Part shown: piece by piece, positions 1,129-8,914 of the stretch
Position numbering within the stretch: position 1 is the stretch's first letter
Layout of the letters: each line of letters starts with the position of its first letter
Sequence record: NC_129898.1
Direction: 5' to 3' (one strand)
DNA: 64,000 nucleotides
From: a phage
The notes under the pieces: model-generated
Databases searched by the model: none
Seen by the model: the letters and a program-made list of their open reading frames with translations, nothing else
Told to the model about the DNA's origin: nothing
Made by a program: the position numbers and the translations under genes

Positions 1129-1416
1129 TCATAGTGTCTCTAAAATTTCATACCCTTCGGGTCGGAAAACAAGCCACTCAGGTGCTCCATTTGGTCGATA
1201 CGCTTTATACAGAACAACCTGATCTCGGCACATGCACATGGCTACATAGTTTTCATCAACACCTGCCTCCTGCATTGCATCTTCTTCTCCGGCAACAGCC
1301 TTGCTTACAACTTCCTTGGTAGGCAGGTGGGCGATCAGCTCGTCACCATCGTTAATTCCAAAATGACTGAGTTCTCCATTGGTATCTTTAATCTTGATCT
1401 TAACCAAATCTTTCAT
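1129..1416 (-). CDS. hypothetical protein (MK-I/V-K... small protein family)
   Basis: 95-aa ORF; start overlaps upstream stop; acidic C-terminus EGYEILETL. Confidence 0.5.
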   Translation of the reverse strand: MKDLVKIKIKDTNGELSHFGINDGDELIAHLPTKEVVSKAVAGEEDAMQEAGVDENYVAMCMCRDQVVLYKAYRPNGAPEWLVFRPEGYEILETL

Positions 1417-1745
1417 TAGTCTTCCTCCAGGTTCAAAGGTCCTAAGATTTCATATGCTAGATTAGAAGTTACCAGAGGGTCTTCTGCATCTTTAGTATTA
1501 TACCATCCGTGAATAACCAGAGTCCCACTTTGCTTCATGTCTAACTGGAACTGTTCTGCCGTTTCCTCATCCATCTCCAAGATCTCCATGAGGTATTTGA
1601 TGTTAGGAAGGTATGCAGCTGTTACAGTCCCCTCTACCAGGCCTTCAGGCCAACCTACATCCGGATGACAAGTAGGGACCAGAGAGGTCAGCTTGATAGT
1701 GTATGCTTTTTCTGCACGAGCCTTCAGTAACGGATCAATTTTCAT
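1416..1745 (-). CDS. hypothetical protein
   Basis: 109-aa ORF; stop/start coupled to neighbours. Confidence 0.5.
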   Translation of the reverse strand: MKIDPLLKARAEKAYTIKLTSLVPTCHPDVGWPEGLVEGTVTAAYLPNIKYLMEILEMDEETAEQFQLDMKQSGTLVIHGWYNTKDAEDPLVTSNLAYEILGPLNLEED

Positions 1746-2095
1746 TATTCTTCCTCCTCTTCGGTGCCTGCTTCCAGTAGTAAGTTAAGAACATCTTCAG
1801 CAGAAGGTTCGTAGAACTCTTGGCCTTCGTTGTCGATGATGCGATAGTCATCACCCCGAATAATCAGAGGATCGTCATCAAAACCTTCAAGACCTTTAAC
1901 AACGACAACACGGTCGATTGCCATCATTGTAAGAACTTTATCGACATCTTCCTCTGCTACACCATACTGCAGCAGAATGTCTTTGGTAGGAGGGACAGCA
2001 TCCACCACAACACCGTTACCAAAACCTTCCGGAAGTTTAGCTAAAATATCTTCCGGAACCACATTCATATCAAAACCTGTGATCTCTACTTTCAT
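1745..2095 (-). CDS. hypothetical protein (MKV-family, poly-E C-terminus)
   Basis: 116-aa ORF starting MKVEITGF, ending EEEEE. Confidence 0.5.
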   Translation of the reverse strand: MKVEITGFDMNVVPEDILAKLPEGFGNGVVVDAVPPTKDILLQYGVAEEDVDKVLTMMAIDRVVVVKGLEGFDDDPLIIRGDDYRIIDNEGQEFYEPSAEDVLNLLLEAGTEEEEE

Positions 2096-2356
2096 TTACA
2101 GAACCTCTTCGTCAACTACTTCATAAAAATGGCTTGGGATTGCAATGGCGTTCTCGCCTTCACCTAAGAACACTGTCCCACTAACGATTAACATTAGAAG
2201 AACGTCTGCGATACCTTCCTCGGGGACGTTGCCAAAACCTTTAATCAGCTCGTAGGTTGGAAGATTTACCTCTAAGATGTCACCATCTTTGGAGCGGAAA
2301 TCAACACCATCCTGAATCTCTGCCGTTTCAAGGTTTTTCAATTTAATCTTCATCAA
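2096..2356 (-). CDS. hypothetical protein (MK-I/V-K family)
   Basis: 86-aa ORF, MMKIKLKNLE..., C-terminal VVDEEVL. Confidence 0.5.
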   Translation of the reverse strand: MMKIKLKNLETAEIQDGVDFRSKDGDILEVNLPTYELIKGFGNVPEEGIADVLLMLIVSGTVFLGEGENAIAIPSHFYEVVDEEVL

Positions 2357-2432
2357 TCAGTCTCCTGTCTTGTTAAGATGAAGGTATTATTGCACACAGG
2401 GTTGGTGTTGTCAACACCTGTGTGGAATAAAA

Positions 2433-2828
2433 TTACTGAAACAGTGCAGATAAATTACCTTCTGGTGGGAACTTATCTGCCAAGAACGGAGTCAGAACAG
2501 TGGCCTTCTGAAGATCTGGAGTCCACTCGTTGTTCAGAACATCCCAGTAGTACGCAATGTTGCTGTGTGGGTGCCGCATTACGAACTTTTTCCCTTCGTA
2601 GTCAGTTGAAACCTCTACAGAAGAAATAACAACAGAATCTTCAAGAGTTTCTTCATAGAAAGATCCACCCTCGAATTTCCAACGAGATGCAAGAGCTCCT
2701 GCCTTAAACGCTGCAGATAACGGACTGTCGGCAAGAACATACATTTCTTGCACTCTGTCGCTACGATCTTTGCTTCTTACGTTGTATACAGTATCTGAGC
2801 TATACTCAACACGGTATAGACTTACCAT
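2433..2828 (-). CDS. hypothetical protein, paralog of 4644..5042
   Basis: 131 aa; shares H-P-x-S-x-(6)-YW-(5)-W-T-P motif with 4644..5042. Confidence 0.55.
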   Translation of the reverse strand: MVSLYRVEYSSDTVYNVRSKDRSDRVQEMYVLADSPLSAAFKAGALASRWKFEGGSFYEETLEDSVVISSVEVSTDYEGKKFVMRHPHSNIAYYWDVLNNEWTPDLQKATVLTPFLADKFPPEGNLSALFQ

Positions 2829-3187
2829 TACCGCACCTCCTCAATAACTTCCACATCTGAACCTACCACAAATGCAAAAGGGCAGGTTTCATGAAAGACA
2901 TCCGGATCGCCGCCAAGCTTGCTAACTATTTCTCCACCACTAATAAACACAAGCTCACCGATATTCATCAGATTGCTGAAATAGTATCCATAATGATTAA
3001 AGAATGCAGCAGGGTCAGGCAGACTGGTAGCCTCAAGCTCTACATCGGTTGAGATTACTTTCTTATCATACCCTCTGGCCTTTTGAGATGCAAGATCTGC
3101 AGAATCCTCAGGCGACCGGAGATGCACAGGAATTGTTTCACCAATAAAGCGTACTTTCATATTCTCACCCAACAACCATAGCTTCAA
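2828..3187 (-). CDS. hypothetical protein (VEIVE-tail family)
   Basis: 119 aa; contains MKVRFIGE and C-terminal DVEVIEEVR. Confidence 0.5.
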   Translation of the reverse strand: MKLWLLGENMKVRFIGETIPVHLRSPEDSADLASQKARGYDKKVISTDVELEATSLPDPAAFFNHYGYYFSNLMNIGELVFISGGEIVSKLGGDPDVFHETCPFAFVVGSDVEVIEEVR

Positions 3188-3428
3188 AAGGGGTCATAAA
3201 CGAATAAACAGCATTATCATCTGCTTCAGGAAATGCCCCCAAAGACTTCATGTCTGAGCCCTTGACAAATACAAGGTTCTGATCAAAAGCTTCTTGTGGA
3301 TCAATCCGATACATATTTCGTAGGGTATCACTTACCTCCTCATCAAGAGGTGAGTATGCTGTGCACGTTTTTCCGATCAAGCTTTGAGAATCAGGATATC
3401 CACCTGAAGTTTTAAAATAAACAATCAT
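3165..3428 (-). CDS. hypothetical protein
   Basis: 87-aa ORF, co-oriented. Confidence 0.45.
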   Translation of the reverse strand: MIVYFKTSGGYPDSQSLIGKTCTAYSPLDEEVSDTLRNMYRIDPQEAFDQNLVFVKGSDMKSLGAFPEADDNAVYSFMTPFEAMVVG

Positions 3429-3523
3429 ATAGTATCACCTCTAGTAAGAGATTGGGATTCCTTTCCCACAAATAATTACAAACTTTTCTTTTTATTGAGA
3501 GAAGTATGCTAATCCAAGCAGGA

Positions 3524-3793
3524 TTACTCTTCTACAATCTCATACACATCAGGAGTTACAATCAACTCTTCTCCGTTACCCGGTGCAACAAACACCACCA
3601 AGCCTTCAGGTGTGTGCTTTTTAGCCATCTCGATAACATCTTCTCGCAGAGCTGGCTCCATCAGATCAAAGCCTTCACCCAAGGCATCACGAACTACCTT
3701 CATGTAGTCCACTGGTTGTGCTTCAACGATCATGCCTTCAACCAGTCCGCAGTTTTTGTCTTCCAGCTCAGTTTTGAATAATTTAATTTTCAT
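3524..3793 (-). CDS. hypothetical protein (MK-I/V-K family)
   Basis: 89 aa; MKIKLFKTE..., C-terminal DVYEIVEE. Confidence 0.5.
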   Translation of the reverse strand: MKIKLFKTELEDKNCGLVEGMIVEAQPVDYMKVVRDALGEGFDLMEPALREDVIEMAKKHTPEGLVVFVAPGNGEELIVTPDVYEIVEE

Positions 3794-3930
3794 TTAGAGG
3801 TCTCCTCAATTATTTGATATTAATAGCCGTAACCTAACACATTAACTACAACTGCGATTGCAAACATAATTTCAAAGCATGCAATCTCTACATTTGGGAC
3901 TAATTTCTTAATCACGCCCATTGTAGCACC

Positions 3931-4248
3931 TCATTCTCCAAAGTAAATCTTTACTTTGCCTTTCCCTTTACCTTTCTTTCCACCGCATTTAGCCAACTGA
4001 CGTGCTGCAACATCTACCATACGGTCAGTTGCCTCGTAAGCGTCACTGCCTTTAGCTTTGGCAATAACTTCTTTTCCGGAAGTGTCAAAAATGAACGCCA
4101 TGACTTCCTGGTGATCATTTTCAACTTTTACACTCACACGTGCATAGTTGGCAGAGGGGTGCAAACGCTCCAGCTTAGACATTTTGTGGGAAATGAAAGA
4201 CACCATACCTTCAGTGATTTCTACGTTGCCAGTGATTTCAATTTGCAT
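3931..4248 (-). CDS. hpf: ribosome hibernation promoting factor / YfiA-RaiA family homolog
   Basis: N-terminal MQIEITGNVEITEG matches the HPF/S30EA signature (E. coli HPF begins MQLNITGNNVEITEA); KLE, VKVE and RQLxK elements conserved; 105 aa. Confidence 0.8.
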   Translation of the reverse strand: MQIEITGNVEITEGMVSFISHKMSKLERLHPSANYARVSVKVENDHQEVMAFIFDTSGKEVIAKAKGSDAYEATDRMVDVAARQLAKCGGKKGKGKGKVKIYFGE

Positions 4249-4335
4249 AACGTGCTCCTTTTAAGGAAGAGAGAATAACAACCATCTCTCTTTGAAAACA
4301 ATAATACTATAGCTGAAGCGTTGTGTCAACAGTTT

Positions 4336-4626
4336 TTACAACTTATTATCGATAGTATCTAAAATATCTACAGCAAGATCTGCCATTTTTCGAACATACT
4401 CTGCAAACTCAACAGGATCCTTGATCAAAGAATTCACAGGGTCGTACCCTAGAGCGTTCAAAATGGCTGCAGCATCTACAACCTTCTCATCATTTGCGAA
4501 GATCTCTCCGTCAAACTTGTGGGTCCATTTTGAGTCAATCTTGGCAGAGCATGGTTGGTCAATGCTTGTTACACCATCGTCTTTAAACTCTCCTGCGTTA
4601 TCAATATTCAGAACTAAATCCATCAT
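4336..4626 (-). CDS. hypothetical protein
   Basis: 96-aa ORF. Confidence 0.5.
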   Translation of the reverse strand: MMDLVLNIDNAGEFKDDGVTSIDQPCSAKIDSKWTHKFDGEIFANDEKVVDAAAILNALGYDPVNSLIKDPVEFAEYVRKMADLAVDILDTIDNKL

Positions 4627-4643
4627 AGTGGCACCTCACTGTT

Positions 4644-5042
4644 TCAGTCTAGCTTTTCTTCAACAACCCCGTAGCTCGGGGCAGAGTCAAGAGCTTTTTG
4701 GTTTAAAAGTGGTGTAGCAGAATCTGCAAACGGTGTCCAAGTTTTTGTTCTGGCATTCCAGTAATGCTTCACTCTGGAATCTGGATGCACTATAACAAAA
4801 ACTTTTTCACTTGTCAACACATTAATTTCTTCTACACCCTTGCTGATAATTTCTCCGTCATAGCCCCCAGTCTGGTATCCTTCGTACCAGGTTCTTGCAT
4901 AGGCATAGCCAGCCTGCCAGCATGCAGCCTCCTCCGAGGTGGAGACTACGTAGAAGTCTTTCTCAAATTCTGGGATACGTCCTTGCTTTACGCTCCAAGC
5001 TCCGCGAATTTTCATTGTTACTTTGAAAAGCTTGTTCTTCAT
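4644..5042 (-). CDS. hypothetical protein, paralog of 2433..2828
   Basis: 132 aa; HPDSRVKHYWNARTKTWTP motif shared with 2433..2828. Confidence 0.55.
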   Translation of the reverse strand: MKNKLFKVTMKIRGAWSVKQGRIPEFEKDFYVVSTSEEAACWQAGYAYARTWYEGYQTGGYDGEIISKGVEEINVLTSEKVFVIVHPDSRVKHYWNARTKTWTPFADSATPLLNQKALDSAPSYGVVEEKLD

Positions 5043-5043
5043 A

Positions 5044-5298
5044 CTACCGCTCTACAATCTCTACGTCTGTTCCTACACCGAAGGCATAGTAATGTTCTTC
5101 CCCAAAGTAATACTTGGGGACACCAGCTTTGATCAGGTCTAACCCGCGAATAAATACCACACCGTGTGATACAGTGGAATGCTTCTGACGCACAGGATCG
5201 TTGTCAGGCAACCATTCAAAGTACACCGCAGGTACAACCTTCCCTTTAAGAAAGGATTGCCCCAAGTAGACGTTAGAATCAAGAATTTTGACCTTCAT
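5044..5298 (-). CDS. hypothetical protein (MKVK / VEIVE family)
   Basis: 84 aa; MKVKILDSNVYLGQ..., C-terminal DVEIVER. Confidence 0.55.
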   Translation of the reverse strand: MKVKILDSNVYLGQSFLKGKVVPAVYFEWLPDNDPVRQKHSTVSHGVVFIRGLDLIKAGVPKYYFGEEHYYAFGVGTDVEIVER

Positions 5299-5512
5299 GA
5301 TCGTCCTCCACTATCTCCACATCCTCCCCTAGGGCAAAGTTGTAGGTCCACTGACTGTCAAAGCAGTCCTGAGATGCTCCAGCGGCAATAAGATCTGCAC
5401 CCTTTATTTTTAAAAGGTCAGGATAATCTTCGTTAGGGACAGCGGTAAACACTTTACCCACTAAAGGCTCCTGACCAATATAGAAGTTTGAATCTAAAAC
5501 TTTAACTTTCAT
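5279..5512 (-). CDS. hypothetical protein (MKVK / VEIVE family)
   Basis: 77 aa; MKVKVLDSNFYIGQ..., EDVEIVEDD; clear paralog of 5044..5298. Confidence 0.55.
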   Translation of the reverse strand: MKVKVLDSNFYIGQEPLVGKVFTAVPNEDYPDLLKIKGADLIAAGASQDCFDSQWTYNFALGEDVEIVEDDHEGQNS

Positions 5513-5796
5513 CAGCGGTCTCCATCGGGCGGTTGTGGAACGTAAACACTGTTACGAATCTCGTCAGCAGTGTAGTAACAAGTTTTCCCCTCTCTGTCCC
5601 TGGCAGCAATGTATTCAGCTATACCAATAAGTGCCATAGCCTTGGTGGCGTATCTCTTAAGCTCGTTAGCTCCCCAGCAAAATCTCTGCCAAAACGGTAT
5701 GAAACCGAATAGGTACACCTTCTGTTTCACTATCCAATAAGTTCCTTTACAGATCACTTTAAACTCTGCAGCACTGTTACTGACACCATTGCTCAT
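5512..5796 (-). CDS. hypothetical protein
   Basis: 94-aa ORF. Confidence 0.5.
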   Translation of the reverse strand: MSNGVSNSAAEFKVICKGTYWIVKQKVYLFGFIPFWQRFCWGANELKRYATKAMALIGIAEYIAARDREGKTCYYTADEIRNSVYVPQPPDGDR

Positions 5797-5808
5797 TATC
5801 TTCTCCTT

Positions 5809-6093
5809 TTATTTTTCTGGGTTTGGCAGATATTGCACATTGGCAGGAGGAACACCGGATAGCTCCCAAACAACCATAGTGCTGTACCCTGGCACACTTC
5901 TAACATTTAAAAGAGTAGGAGCACCAACACATTTAAACTTCCTTTTCCCAAATCCGTTCTCCATCATAACCCAGTATCCTGTATCCTGATCACCTGGAAT
6001 TTGTGTTCCATCATCGTCCACCCAGCGGACGGTCCATTTCGATACAGCAACGGCTCGGTATTTAAACTTTTTAAACCACTCAAACAGTTTCAT
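5809..6093 (-). CDS. hypothetical protein
   Basis: 94-aa ORF. Confidence 0.5.
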   Translation of the reverse strand: MKLFEWFKKFKYRAVAVSKWTVRWVDDDGTQIPGDQDTGYWVMMENGFGKRKFKCVGAPTLLNVRSVPGYSTMVVWELSGVPPANVQYLPNPEK

Positions 6094-8386: not shown

Positions 8387-8914
8387 CTATATCTCCTGGT
8401 TCAAACTGTTAAGAAAGGATACCCTGTCTTCGCTATTTTTCTCTGTGATGTACCCTCCAAACATGGAAAGAATCACATGCTTCAAGTAATCTTTTTCTGG
8501 GTCGCTTAGATGATTGCGTGGCTTTATTTCCACATCATGGTAGTCATACAATCCACAATCATGATACCCCCAGTATCGACACACCTCAATACTGATCGGG
8601 AGTTTTTTGTCACACGAAACTTTCCAACGGGTTACGTTGTTACCAGGAGATAAATCCTCTCCCACCTTCACGAATGACAAATCATAATTCATAAACTTTT
8701 CGTACAGTTTAAGTACAAAACCTTCTACCTGTGGAGAAACACCAGCCACTAGCTGGGCGTATCTATATTTACTTTCAATAATTTTTCGGCGCTTTGCTGT
8801 AAGGTTTATTGCAGCAATTTGACTCTCCGAGTATCTCCAAGGCTTATATATAAATGCTTTCGGGTCTTTATCGCCATAAAAATCTTTCCAATCAACTAGC
8901 AGCATACCTGTCAC
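8387..8914 (-). CDS. hypothetical protein
   Basis: 175-aa ORF. Confidence 0.5.
   Translation of the reverse strand: MTGMLLVDWKDFYGDKDPKAFIYKPWRYSESQIAAINLTAKRRKIIESKYRYAQLVAGVSPQVEGFVLKLYEKFMNYDLSFVKVGEDLSPGNNVTRWKVSCDKKLPISIEVCRYWGYHDCGLYDYHDVEIKPRNHLSDPEKDYLKHVILSMFGGYITEKNSEDRVSFLNSLNQEI

What the first reader, a model, noticed from the sequence alone, without database searches (positions are those of the whole stretch)
2433..5042. Second paralog pair (2433..2828 and 4644..5042) with a conserved HP...YW...W-T-P motif
VMRHPHSNIAYYWDVLNNEWTPDLQ versus IVHPDSRVKHYWNARTKTWTPFADS; both are ~131 aa and interleaved with members of the other small-protein family, indicating local duplication.
Basis: seen in the sequence. 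Interest (0 to 1): 0.35.

Follow-up and report, generated by a model that had tools for sequence, protein, structure and literature searches.

The report
Duplicated phage gene cassette, host-specific
Two diverged copies of an uncharacterised ~131-residue early protein of an rV5-like E. coli phage each end a repeated three-gene cassette; published transposon data for a 98.5%-identical phage show them dispensable on lab E. coli K-12 but needed on a uropathogenic strain, so they are probably host-specific (likely counter-defence) factors.

Summary
ORF A (2433..2828, minus strand, 131 aa) and ORF B (4644..5042, minus strand, 132 aa) are real paralogs: BLASTP E=2e-11, shuffle z=16, one PHROG (phrog_7379), the same predicted fold, and dN/dS of 0.03-0.09.

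The window is an rV5-like Vequintavirus. A is rv5_gp144/bas54_0150 and B is rv5_gp137/bas54_0157.

The family is very narrow. An exhaustive search of 1.84 billion representative proteins found only Vequintavirus members and two sister lineages, each of which keeps only one copy in the same gene slot. The duplication is therefore old, not recent.

Each paralog is the last gene of a tightly packed trio. Its first two genes belong to the small family phrog_5009, so the duplicated unit was probably a three-gene cassette.

No known domain or significant structural match was found. The rV5 GenBank note linking gp137 to A118 gp30 (now AcrIIA3) fails on testing.

Supplementary Tn-seq data of the HIDEN-SEQ preprint on phage Bas54 (98.5% identical proteins) give the function lead. 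Both genes are non-essential in K-12. In the uropathogenic isolate CFE311 all three genes of the A cassette fall to zero insertions and B falls 4.5-fold. The authors did not follow this up.

Best reading: early accessory proteins needed on particular hosts, most likely for counter-defence. The target and mechanism are unknown.

The parts
2433..2828 (-). Paralog A, 131 aa (rv5_gp144 / ORF149; bas54_0150). Last gene of cassette A.
   Evidence: ORF. phrog_7379 E=4e-66. 98.5% identical to bas54_0150. dN/dS 0.03-0.09. AF2 model pLDDT 75.9, pTM 0.72. Tn-seq: 25/25 TA sites hit in K-12; log2FC -6.77, adjusted P 0 in CFE311.
2828..3160 (-). Cassette A, gene 2: small-family protein of 110 aa from ATG 3160 (the mechanical ORF extends to TTG 3187). 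bas54_0151 / rv5_gp143.
   Evidence: phrog_13661. Joins the phrog_5009-like family at E=9.9e-5 with seeds that exclude it. Its stop overlaps A's start (TAATG), with GGAGG upstream. CFE311 log2FC -6.17.
3165..3428 (-). Cassette A, gene 1: small-family protein, 87 aa. bas54_0152 / rv5_gp142.
   Evidence: phrog_13920 plus phrog_5009 at E=1.8e-4. HMM E=4.7e-5. 4-nt gap to the next gene. CFE311 log2FC -7.16.
4644..5042 (-). Paralog B, 132 aa (rv5_gp137 / ORF142; bas54_0157). Last gene of cassette B.
   Evidence: ORF. phrog_7379 E=6e-74. 98.5% identical to bas54_0157 read from its GTG start. dN/dS about 0.05. AF2 model pLDDT 83.8, pTM 0.76. Tn-seq: 18/19 TA sites hit in K-12; log2FC -2.14, adjusted P 0 in CFE311.
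5044..5298 (-). Cassette B, gene 2: small-family protein, 84 aa. bas54_0158.
   Evidence: phrog_5009 E=4e-27. Its stop is 1 nt before B's ATG. CFE311 log2FC -0.30, not significant.
5279..5512 (-). Cassette B, gene 1: small-family protein, 77 aa. bas54_0159.
   Evidence: phrog_5009 E=8e-39. Overlaps the next gene by 20 nt. CFE311 log2FC +0.98, not significant.
2508..2582 (-). Conserved motif in A (VMRHPHSNIAYYWDVLNNEWTPDLQ), forming the predicted small three-strand beta meander.
4719..4793 (-). Conserved motif in B (IVHPDSRVKHYWNARTKTWTPFADS), forming the predicted small three-strand beta meander (strands 82-85, 94-96, 101-103).
2386..2414 (-). Sigma-70 promoter directly after A's stop (rV5 'P150'). 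It starts the next transcription unit, so A ends its unit.
   Evidence: TTGACA-17-AATAAT, 11/12 match. Annotated as promoter P150 in rV5.
4301..4329 (-). Sigma-70 promoter between the two cassettes, upstream of the HPF/RaiA gene (rV5 'P144').
   Evidence: TTGACA-17-TATTAT, 11/12 match. Annotated in rV5.
3931..4248 (-). Context only: phage-encoded ribosome hibernation factor (HPF/RaiA) lying between the two cassettes.
   Evidence: Pfam PF02482 E=1.9e-12. Annotated as such. Not conditionally essential in CFE311, log2FC -0.53.

Best explanation
A and B are two anciently diverged copies of one small cytoplasmic protein family (phrog_7379) with a two-lobed alpha+beta fold that has no characterised relative. 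They sit in the array of small accessory genes of an rV5-like Vequintavirus that carries host-type sigma-70 promoters. Each is the last, translationally coupled gene of a three-gene cassette: two phrog_5009-like small proteins, then the ~131-aa protein.

They are accessory genes. The phage does not need them on E. coli K-12, but it needs them on particular natural hosts. Cassette A is indispensable on the uropathogenic isolate CFE311, and B contributes partially there.

The most likely mechanism, which is inferred and not shown, is neutralisation of a strain-specific host barrier, most probably an anti-phage immune system. The two copies would have diverged to cover different host variants.

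Shown here: paralogy, purifying selection, shared predicted fold, cassette anatomy, and conservation of the slots across lineages. Shown in published data: non-essential in K-12, depleted in CFE311. Inferred: early expression, action as a cassette or complex, and a counter-defence function.
For: - Paralogy and selection.
- Same order of secondary-structure elements in two separate models, each with a different paralog as target, built from the same seven family sequences.
- Location in a one-directional array of small genes with 11/12-match sigma-70 promoters that rV5 annotates as P144 and P150.
- Cassette structure and tight coupling (TAATG overlap, 1-4 nt gaps).
- Narrow distribution with differential retention. 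Only nine hits among 1.84e9 representatives, and sister lineages keep either A or B in the same slot.
- A natural isolate (Bas59) lacks the whole B cassette but keeps A.
- HIDEN-SEQ Tn-seq on Bas54 = MaxBurger (orthologs 98.5% identical). In K-12, bas54_0150 had 25/25 and bas54_0157 18/19 TA sites hit, both 'Non-essential'. In K-12 versus CFE311, 0150 gave -6.77, 0151 -6.17, 0152 -7.16 and 0157 -2.14 (all adjusted P = 0). Flanking genes 0149, 0154, 0155, 0156, 0158 and 0159 were unaffected.
- Polarity does not explain A's depletion. A is the last gene before promoter P150, the genes after it (0149 to 0141) are unaffected, and the authors argue against widespread polar effects.
- A validated anti-defence gene of unknown function (bas54_0140, against DS-28) lies ten genes further along the same array.
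Against: - No host target is known. The authors cloned only DS-28 and Gao_Tmn from CFE311 and made clean knockouts only of 0063 and 0140.
- The A/B result therefore rests on one pooled Tn-seq comparison in a preprint, without clean deletions or complementation.
- Conditional essentiality on a clinical isolate need not involve immunity. Differences in host physiology or host factors could give the same result.
- B's two partner genes show no phenotype in CFE311, which weakens the idea that the cassette always works as a unit.
- PADLOC, Pfam and NCBIfam give nothing, and there is no significant structural match.
- Early timing is inferred from promoter type and position, not measured.
Confidence: 0.55

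Rival explanations
1. Host-takeover factor acting on translation or the ribosome. The proteins would bind ribosomes or rRNA and work alongside the phage HPF/RaiA gene that lies between the two cassettes.
For: Both models return the same top PDB family: eukaryotic ribosomal protein eL20 and its archaeal single-domain relative LX. Foldseek E is 0.07-0.3, probability up to 0.99, TM about 0.4 over 85-150 columns. The HPF gene (3931..4248) sits between the cassettes in the window and in the L009 lineage.
Against: No match reaches E<=1e-3 and TM is only about 0.4, which is typical for generic small alpha+beta folds. There is no sequence-level signal to Pfam or PDB. HPF itself is not conditionally essential in CFE311, log2FC -0.53. 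The B-only lineage (L004) shows no HPF in the syntenic stretch. Ribosomes of K-12 and a UPEC strain are essentially the same, which fits poorly with a strain-specific requirement (established knowledge).
Confidence: 0.1
2. Small modulator of host RNA polymerase or DNA, in the manner of T7 Gp2, RNAP epsilon (YkzG) or phi29 p6, that redirects host transcription early in infection.
For: The N-terminal beta-beta-alpha-beta lobe gives weak Foldseek matches to YkzG/RNAP epsilon (4njc, E 0.31-1.6, TM normalised to the target 0.52-0.58) and to phi29 p6 (8pw2, E 2.2). Small size and position in a sigma-70-driven array fit such factors.
Against: The matches are not significant and cover only about 70 residues of a very common topology. 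Nothing explains a strain-specific requirement. No HTH or other DNA-binding signature was found.
Confidence: 0.07
3. The genes have no specific role in host range. On this view the CFE311 depletion is an artefact of pooled Tn-seq (polar or cis effects, bottlenecks, disruption of a regulatory element or transcript), and the pair is simply a retained duplicate ORFan.
For: There is a single comparison, with no clean knockouts. The three depleted genes are contiguous and coupled, so 0151 and 0152 could be polar on 0150. Control read means for 0150-0152 are modest at 71-142. One supplementary sheet is a mislabelled duplicate, which shows that the tables are not error-free.
Against: dN/dS of 0.03-0.09 and conservation at about 40% identity in sister lineages show selection on the proteins. 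59 TA sites across three genes go to exactly zero, while neighbours on both sides are unchanged. The paralog B, 1.8 kb away, is independently depleted. Nothing downstream of A is depleted until 0140, and the genes in between are normal, which rules out polarity on 0140.
Confidence: 0.12
4. Anti-CRISPR of the AcrIIA3 family, as implied by the rV5 GenBank note that ORF142/gp137 resembles Listeria phage A118 NP_463491, a protein now annotated as AcrIIA3.
For: The annotation note in NC_011041, the present name of NP_463491, and similar length (125 against 132 aa).
Against: BLASTP gives E=0.035 over 42 aa for B and E=0.59 for A in single comparisons, and the matches are not collinear. Profile comparison by hhalign gives probability 0.4%. 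The matched stretch is predicted beta-strand in B. tblastn of B against 50,697 phage records at E<=0.01 finds only Vequintavirus.
Confidence: 0.01

Closest known systems
phrog_7379 (PHROGs v4, 'unknown function')
   Same: Both proteins match the 131-position profile end to end (E=4e-66 and 6e-74). They are members, so the grouping of the two paralogs is already in a public database.
   Different: The PHROG carries no function, and nothing in it records the cassette structure, the age of the duplication or the host-specific phenotype.
Conditionally essential anti-defence genes of phage Bas54 found by HIDEN-SEQ (bas54_0140 and the MoxR ATPase bas54_0063, both against DS-28)
   Same: Same phage type. 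bas54_0140 is in the same one-directional array of small genes and also has unknown function. The phenotype is the same: non-essential in K-12 and strongly depleted in CFE311 (0140 -5.48, 0063 -7.23, 0150 -6.77).
   Different: No sequence relationship was seen. 0140 and 0063 were validated by clean knockouts and paired with a cloned defence system, while A and B were not followed up. A comes as a three-gene cassette and has a paralog.
AcrIIA3 (Listeria phage A118 gp30, NP_463491)
   Same: Small phage protein of similar length. The rV5 record cites it as similar to gp137.
   Different: There is no detectable homology, the predicted secondary structure differs, and the genomic context differs (the A118 gene sits next to the AcrIIA1 and AcrIIA2 genes).
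Ribosomal protein eL20 (RPL18A) / archaeal LX fold
   Same: Best, and consistent, PDB fold match for both paralog models.
   Different: The match is not significant (E>=0.07, TM about 0.4, 8-17% identity) and has no sequence signal. It is a resemblance only.
Escherichia phage 4MG (Seunavirus) X824_gp155, taken to be BFVD entry V5KSY8 because it is the only 185-aa CDS in the parts of the genome read
   Same: Foldseek probability 1.00, E=0.013, TM normalised to the query 0.56. hhalign E=0.0018 over 58 columns, sharing the motif Y-[VI]-[IL]-A-x4-S-[AV]-x3-A-G of the N-terminal lobe. It lies in an array of small genes of another Vequintavirinae genus.
   Different: hhalign probability is only 15%. 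The protein lacks the HP..YW..W-T-P motif and has a long basic helical tail. It is at most a remote relative of the N-terminal lobe, and its function is also unknown.

Membership tests
phrog_7379 | Significant full-length match to the family profile | tested here: met
   A: E=4.2e-66 over residues 1-131 of 131. B: E=5.8e-74 over residues 2-132.
AcrIIA3 anti-CRISPR family | Sequence homology to A118 gp30 / AcrIIA3 | tested here: not met
   BLASTP E=0.035 (42 aa) for B and E=0.59 for A. hhalign probability 0.4%.
AcrIIA3 anti-CRISPR family | Location in an acr locus next to an aca/AcrIIA1-type HTH regulator | tested here: not met
   Neighbours are phrog_5009-like small proteins and genes with no Pfam domain. 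No HTH was detected in the flanking genes. In A118 the gene sits beside the AcrIIA1 and AcrIIA2 genes.
AcrIIA3 anti-CRISPR family | Inhibition of type II-A Cas9 | not testable with these tools
   Needs an experiment.
WW domain | Two signature Trp about 20-22 residues apart plus a Pro, in a three-strand meander, with a match to the Pfam WW profile | tested here: not met
   The conserved Trp are 7 residues apart (W95, W102). There is no WW hit in Pfam at E<=10 or in PDB sequences with a C-terminal profile; the only hits were Kelch_1 at E=0.16 and unrelated proteins.
Ribosomal eL20/LX (PF01775) fold | Significant structural or sequence match | tested here: inconclusive
   It is the consistent top hit for both models, but at E=0.07-0.3 and TM about 0.4. 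Pfam and PDB sequence searches are negative.
Phage counter-defence (anti-defence) accessory genes, a functional class | Dispensable on a permissive laboratory host | tested here: met
   Published Tn-seq of 98.5%-identical orthologs: 25/25 and 18/19 TA sites hit, both classed 'Non-essential'. The B cassette is naturally deleted in Bas59.
Phage counter-defence (anti-defence) accessory genes, a functional class | Conditionally required on a host carrying extra barriers | tested here: met
   In CFE311 against K-12, 0150 gave log2FC -6.77 and 0157 -2.14, both adjusted P 0. This is a literature result, not validated by clean knockouts.
Phage counter-defence (anti-defence) accessory genes, a functional class | Pairing with a specific defence system that it neutralises | not testable with these tools
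   The authors tested only 0063 and 0140 against DS-28 and Gao_Tmn. No data exist for A or B.
Phage counter-defence (anti-defence) accessory genes, a functional class | Early expression | tested here: inconclusive
   Sigma-70 consensus promoters lie in the array and are annotated in rV5. The overall count of promoter-like sites is not above shuffles (22 against 20.8), and no transcript data were found.
Known defence-system proteins (PADLOC-DB) | Match to any PADLOC model | tested here: not met
   No hits at E<=1 for A, B, P0007 or P0008.

The most novel reading that the evidence does not exclude
The unit [two phrog_5009-like small proteins + one phrog_7379 protein] is a previously undescribed three-component counter-defence cassette with a new fold. 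It was duplicated long ago within the Vequintavirus early array. Its two copies now neutralise different, still unidentified E. coli immune systems. Copy A is indispensable on the uropathogenic strain CFE311 and copy B contributes there. On this reading the phage carries a small, diversifying family of immune-evasion cassettes that helps set its host range.
Probability: 0.3. Interest if true: 0.6.

Novelty: new member of a known kind. Interest (0 to 1): 0.42.

Why it matters
rV5-like phages are among the most commonly isolated E. coli myoviruses and are used in therapy and biocontrol, yet most of their roughly 220 genes have no known function. Tying two 'hypothetical proteins' and their partner genes to a strong, strain-specific fitness requirement on a uropathogenic isolate gives a concrete, testable handle on what limits the host range of these phages. 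If the target is an immune system, the cassette would add a new inhibitor family with a new fold. It would also give an example of paralog diversification within counter-defence genes. The work further corrects a misleading database lead, the implied AcrIIA3 similarity.

Tried and rejected
1. AcrIIA3 link from the rV5 annotation note: rejected.
2. WW-domain reading of the Y-W...W-T-P meander: rejected by Trp spacing and by Pfam and PDB profile searches.
3. Long repeat proteins P0010-P0013 from the exhaustive HMM search: judged spurious. Each matches through five weak stretches of its own repeats, for example 'RYYWTV' in FN3-like repeats.
4. PDB sequence hit 8pjr, a designed Kelch-like protein (whole-sequence E=0.0018, but no single stretch passes the threshold), and Kelch_1 (E=0.16): the shared feature is a generic aromatic beta-hairpin, not homology.
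5. The 175-aa ORF 8387..8914, which follows another phrog_5009 gene, as a possible third, distant copy: rejected, hhalign probability 0.2%.
6. Pfam, NCBIfam and PADLOC on A, B, P0007 and P0008: nothing. Pfam on the partner genes: nothing except HPF.
7. Foldseek against PDB for both models: no hit at E<=1e-3. Against BFVD: only the protein's own ortholog and a marginal 4MG protein.
8. Position-specific pairing of the small genes between the cassettes: unresolved. Gene 2 of B is closer to gene 2 of A, but gene 1 of B is also closer to gene 2 of A.
9. Search for a B copy in the A-only lineage and an A copy in the B-only lineage within +/-8-10 kb: none found.
10. The CFE303 condition could not be assessed, because the supplementary sheet labelled CFE303 is a duplicate of the CFE311 run.
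11. Literature searches for transcriptomics or functional work on these rV5 genes found nothing specific.
Full report
**What is in the sequence.** The window is an rV5-like Vequintavirus. Positions 2000-6000 are 97.7% identical to Escherichia phage YP-6 and 92-94% identical to more than 100 other rV5-like genomes. From position 1 to about 35 kb almost all genes are on the minus strand. The two ORFs of the finding are exactly as described: A at 2433..2828 (131 aa) and B at 4644..5042 (132 aa), both on the minus strand. In the rV5 reference they are rv5_gp144 (ORF149) and rv5_gp137 (ORF142). In the BASEL phage Bas54 (MaxBurger) they are bas54_0150 and bas54_0157.

**Check of the observation.** BLASTP of A against B gives 28% identity over 111 residues, E=2e-11. 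A Smith-Waterman score of 113 compares with 28.6 +/- 5.2 for 5000 shuffles, z=16, and none reached the observed score. Both proteins match one PHROG (phrog_7379, unknown function) over their full length. There is no third copy in the window. Similarity extends well beyond the HP..YW..W-T-P motif, with 13 columns invariant across seven family members spread over the whole length.

**Distribution and age of the duplication.**
- The word-index searches found only close relatives.
- An exhaustive HMMER search of a profile of both paralogs against 1.84 billion representative proteins returned nine hits. Five belong to the family: the full-length P0007 and P0008, and the short or truncated P0002, P0004 and P0009. 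The other four are long repeat proteins that match through summed weak repeats, and I regard them as spurious.
- P0007 and P0014 are A-type, about 40% identical to A and about 27% to B. P0008 is B-type, about 39% to B and about 27% to A.
- These proteins come from two uncultivated sister lineages of about 120-140 kb. One is a contig in an E. coli assembly. The other comprises IMG/VR contigs.
- Gene order around them is collinear with the window. The A-type gene sits in the A slot after the same three small genes, and the B-type gene sits in the B slot.
- Each sister lineage has only one of the two copies within +/-8-10 kb.
- The duplication therefore predates the split of the three lineages and was followed by differential loss. 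It is old, not a recent tandem event.

**Natural deletions.** Within Vequintavirus, B is occasionally lost. Bas59 (EduardKellenberger) has a deletion that fuses the upstream 'glycosidase' gene in frame to the last 33 codons of B. This removes the whole B cassette and leaves the A cassette intact. P0004 is a deletion that fuses B to the next gene.

**The unit of duplication.**
- The two genes directly upstream of B (5279..5512, 5044..5298) are phrog_5009 members.
- A profile built only from B-side and 8911..9144 members finds the two genes directly upstream of A (3165..3428 and 2828..3160) at E=4.7e-5 and 9.9e-5 in a 597-ORF database, together with their orthologs in the sister lineage.
- The layout [small][small][~131 aa] thus occurs twice.
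- The genes in each trio are tightly coupled. In cassette A the stop and start overlap (TAATG) with a GGAGG upstream. In cassette B the gap before B is 1 nt and the two small genes overlap by 20 nt.
- A strong sigma-70 promoter follows directly after A (2414..2386, rV5 'P150'). Another lies between the cassettes, upstream of the phage HPF/RaiA gene (4329..4301, 'P144').
- Which small gene corresponds to which between the cassettes is not resolved.
- A second small family (3524..3793, 2096..2356, 1745..2095, 1416..1745, 1129..1416) flanks cassette A. The array is therefore a mosaic of three expanded families.

**Structure and homology.**
- AlphaFold2 with only seven sequences still gave a confident model of B (pLDDT 83.8, pTM 0.76) and a usable one of A (75.9, 0.72). 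Both have the same order of elements: a long beta hairpin, an 18-residue helix, a long strand, a small three-strand meander that carries the conserved motif, and a final strand.
- Foldseek found no PDB match at E<=1e-3. The consistent but weak top family for both models is ribosomal eL20 / archaeal LX (E 0.07-0.3, TM about 0.4). It is followed by small beta-beta-alpha-beta proteins such as YkzG and phi29 p6.
- In BFVD the only notable hit besides the protein's own ortholog is a 185-aa protein of phage 4MG (E=0.013, TM 0.56). The one 185-aa CDS I found in that genome, X824_gp155, shares an N-lobe motif with the family, but at hhalign probability of only 15%. It is at most a remote relative.
- Pfam, NCBIfam, PADLOC and PDB sequence searches are negative.

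**Leads tested and rejected.** The rV5 record says gp137 resembles Listeria phage A118 NP_463491, which is now annotated as the anti-CRISPR AcrIIA3. That similarity does not hold: BLASTP E=0.035 over 42 residues and hhalign probability 0.4%. My own impression that the motif looks WW-like also failed, both on Trp spacing and on profile searches.

**Functional evidence from the literature.** The HIDEN-SEQ preprint (bioRxiv 10.1101/2025.11.20.689424) reports saturated transposon mutagenesis of Bas54. This phage is MaxBurger, and its A and B orthologs are each 98.5% identical to the window proteins.
- In K-12 both genes are non-essential, with 25/25 and 18/19 TA sites hit.
- In the resampling comparison of K-12 BW25113 with the uropathogenic isolate CFE311, bas54_0150 (A) falls from a mean of 108 to 0 (log2FC -6.77). 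Its two cassette partners 0151 and 0152 also fall to 0 (-6.17, -7.16). bas54_0157 (B) falls 4.5-fold (-2.14). All four have adjusted P = 0.
- Genes on both sides (0149, 0154, HPF 0155, 0156) and B's partners (0158, 0159) are unchanged.
- The sheet labelled 'CFE303' is a duplicate of this CFE311 run, so no second host can be assessed.
- The authors followed up only bas54_0063 and bas54_0140 (against DS-28) and cloned only two CFE311 systems. The A/B cassette is not mentioned in the text.
- Polarity cannot explain A's own depletion. A ends its transcription unit, and the next nine genes are unaffected. The authors also argue against widespread polar effects.

**Interpretation.** The pair belongs to a narrow, fast-turnover accessory family in the sigma-70-driven array of small genes. 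The family is conserved at the protein level, dispensable on the laboratory host and required on a natural host. That is the profile of a host-range or counter-defence factor, and a validated anti-defence gene (bas54_0140) lies in the same array just beyond the window's left edge. I therefore commit to this reading: host-specific accessory proteins, most likely neutralising a strain-specific immune barrier. A acts with, or at least is co-required with, its two small partners, and B is a diverged copy with partly different specificity. My confidence is about 0.55 for 'host-specific infection factor' and about 0.3-0.4 for counter-defence specifically. Rival readings are ribosome-directed action, RNAP- or DNA-directed action, and a Tn-seq artefact. 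All three are weaker, for the reasons given under each rival.

**Novelty.** The paralogy itself is ordinary and already implicit in PHROGs. New here are the cassette-level duplication, its age, the absence of any significant match for the predicted fold, the rejection of the AcrIIA3 lead, and the link to an unreported conditional-essentiality signal. Overall the pair is a new, uncharacterised member of a known kind, phage accessory or counter-defence genes, and is of moderate interest.

Noticed in passing
window 1129..1416, 1416..1745, 1745..2095, 2096..2356, 3524..3793 (all minus strand): Five further small genes ('MKIKL...YE[IV]VEE') join a second paralog family by iterated HMM search. The array is thus built from three interleaved expanded families.
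   Followed up: partly
window 4789..4817 (minus strand), inside paralog B: A near-consensus sigma-70 site (TTGACA-17-TATAGT with an upstream TG) lies within the coding region of B, at the start of its conserved C-terminal lobe. It is not annotated in rV5. It could drive the downstream gene 4336..4626, or it could be chance.
   Followed up: no
window 2386..2432 (minus strand): The -35 box of promoter P150 sits in the loop of an 8-bp inverted repeat (CACACAGG...CCTGTGTG) directly after A's stop codon. This could be a combined terminator or operator and promoter element.
   Followed up: no
GenBank records MG0656xx ('Campylobacter phage C9, A112b, A142 ...'): Eighteen records labelled as Campylobacter jejuni phages carry this E. 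coli rV5-type region, and the sampled records are 97.7-98.5% identical to B at protein level. They look like mislabelled or contaminant genomes.
   Followed up: no
HIDEN-SEQ preprint, Extended Data Table 8, sheet 'Data S6': The sheet labelled resampling_K-12_vs_CFE303 contains the CFE311 run. Its console line and all values are identical to sheet S7, so the CFE303 results are missing from the supplement.
   Followed up: yes
L019 (Escherichia phage EduardKellenberger, MZ501061) 2135..2602; protein P0004: Two natural deletions involve B. In Bas59 the 'glycosidase' gene is fused in frame to the last 33 codons of B, and the whole B cassette is lost. P0004 is a fusion of B's C-terminal half to the product of the next gene (window 4336..4626).
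   Followed up: partly
L009 8068..8358 and L004 7337..7636: A 96-99-aa gene that is absent from the window replaces B in the A-only lineage and lies upstream of B in the B-only lineage. The B slot is thus a hot spot of gene gain and loss.
   Followed up: partly
window 3931..4248 (minus strand): A phage-encoded ribosome hibernation factor (HPF/RaiA, PF02482 E=1.9e-12) lies between the two cassettes. It is non-essential in K-12 and not conditionally essential in CFE311.
   Followed up: partly
   Followed up: yes
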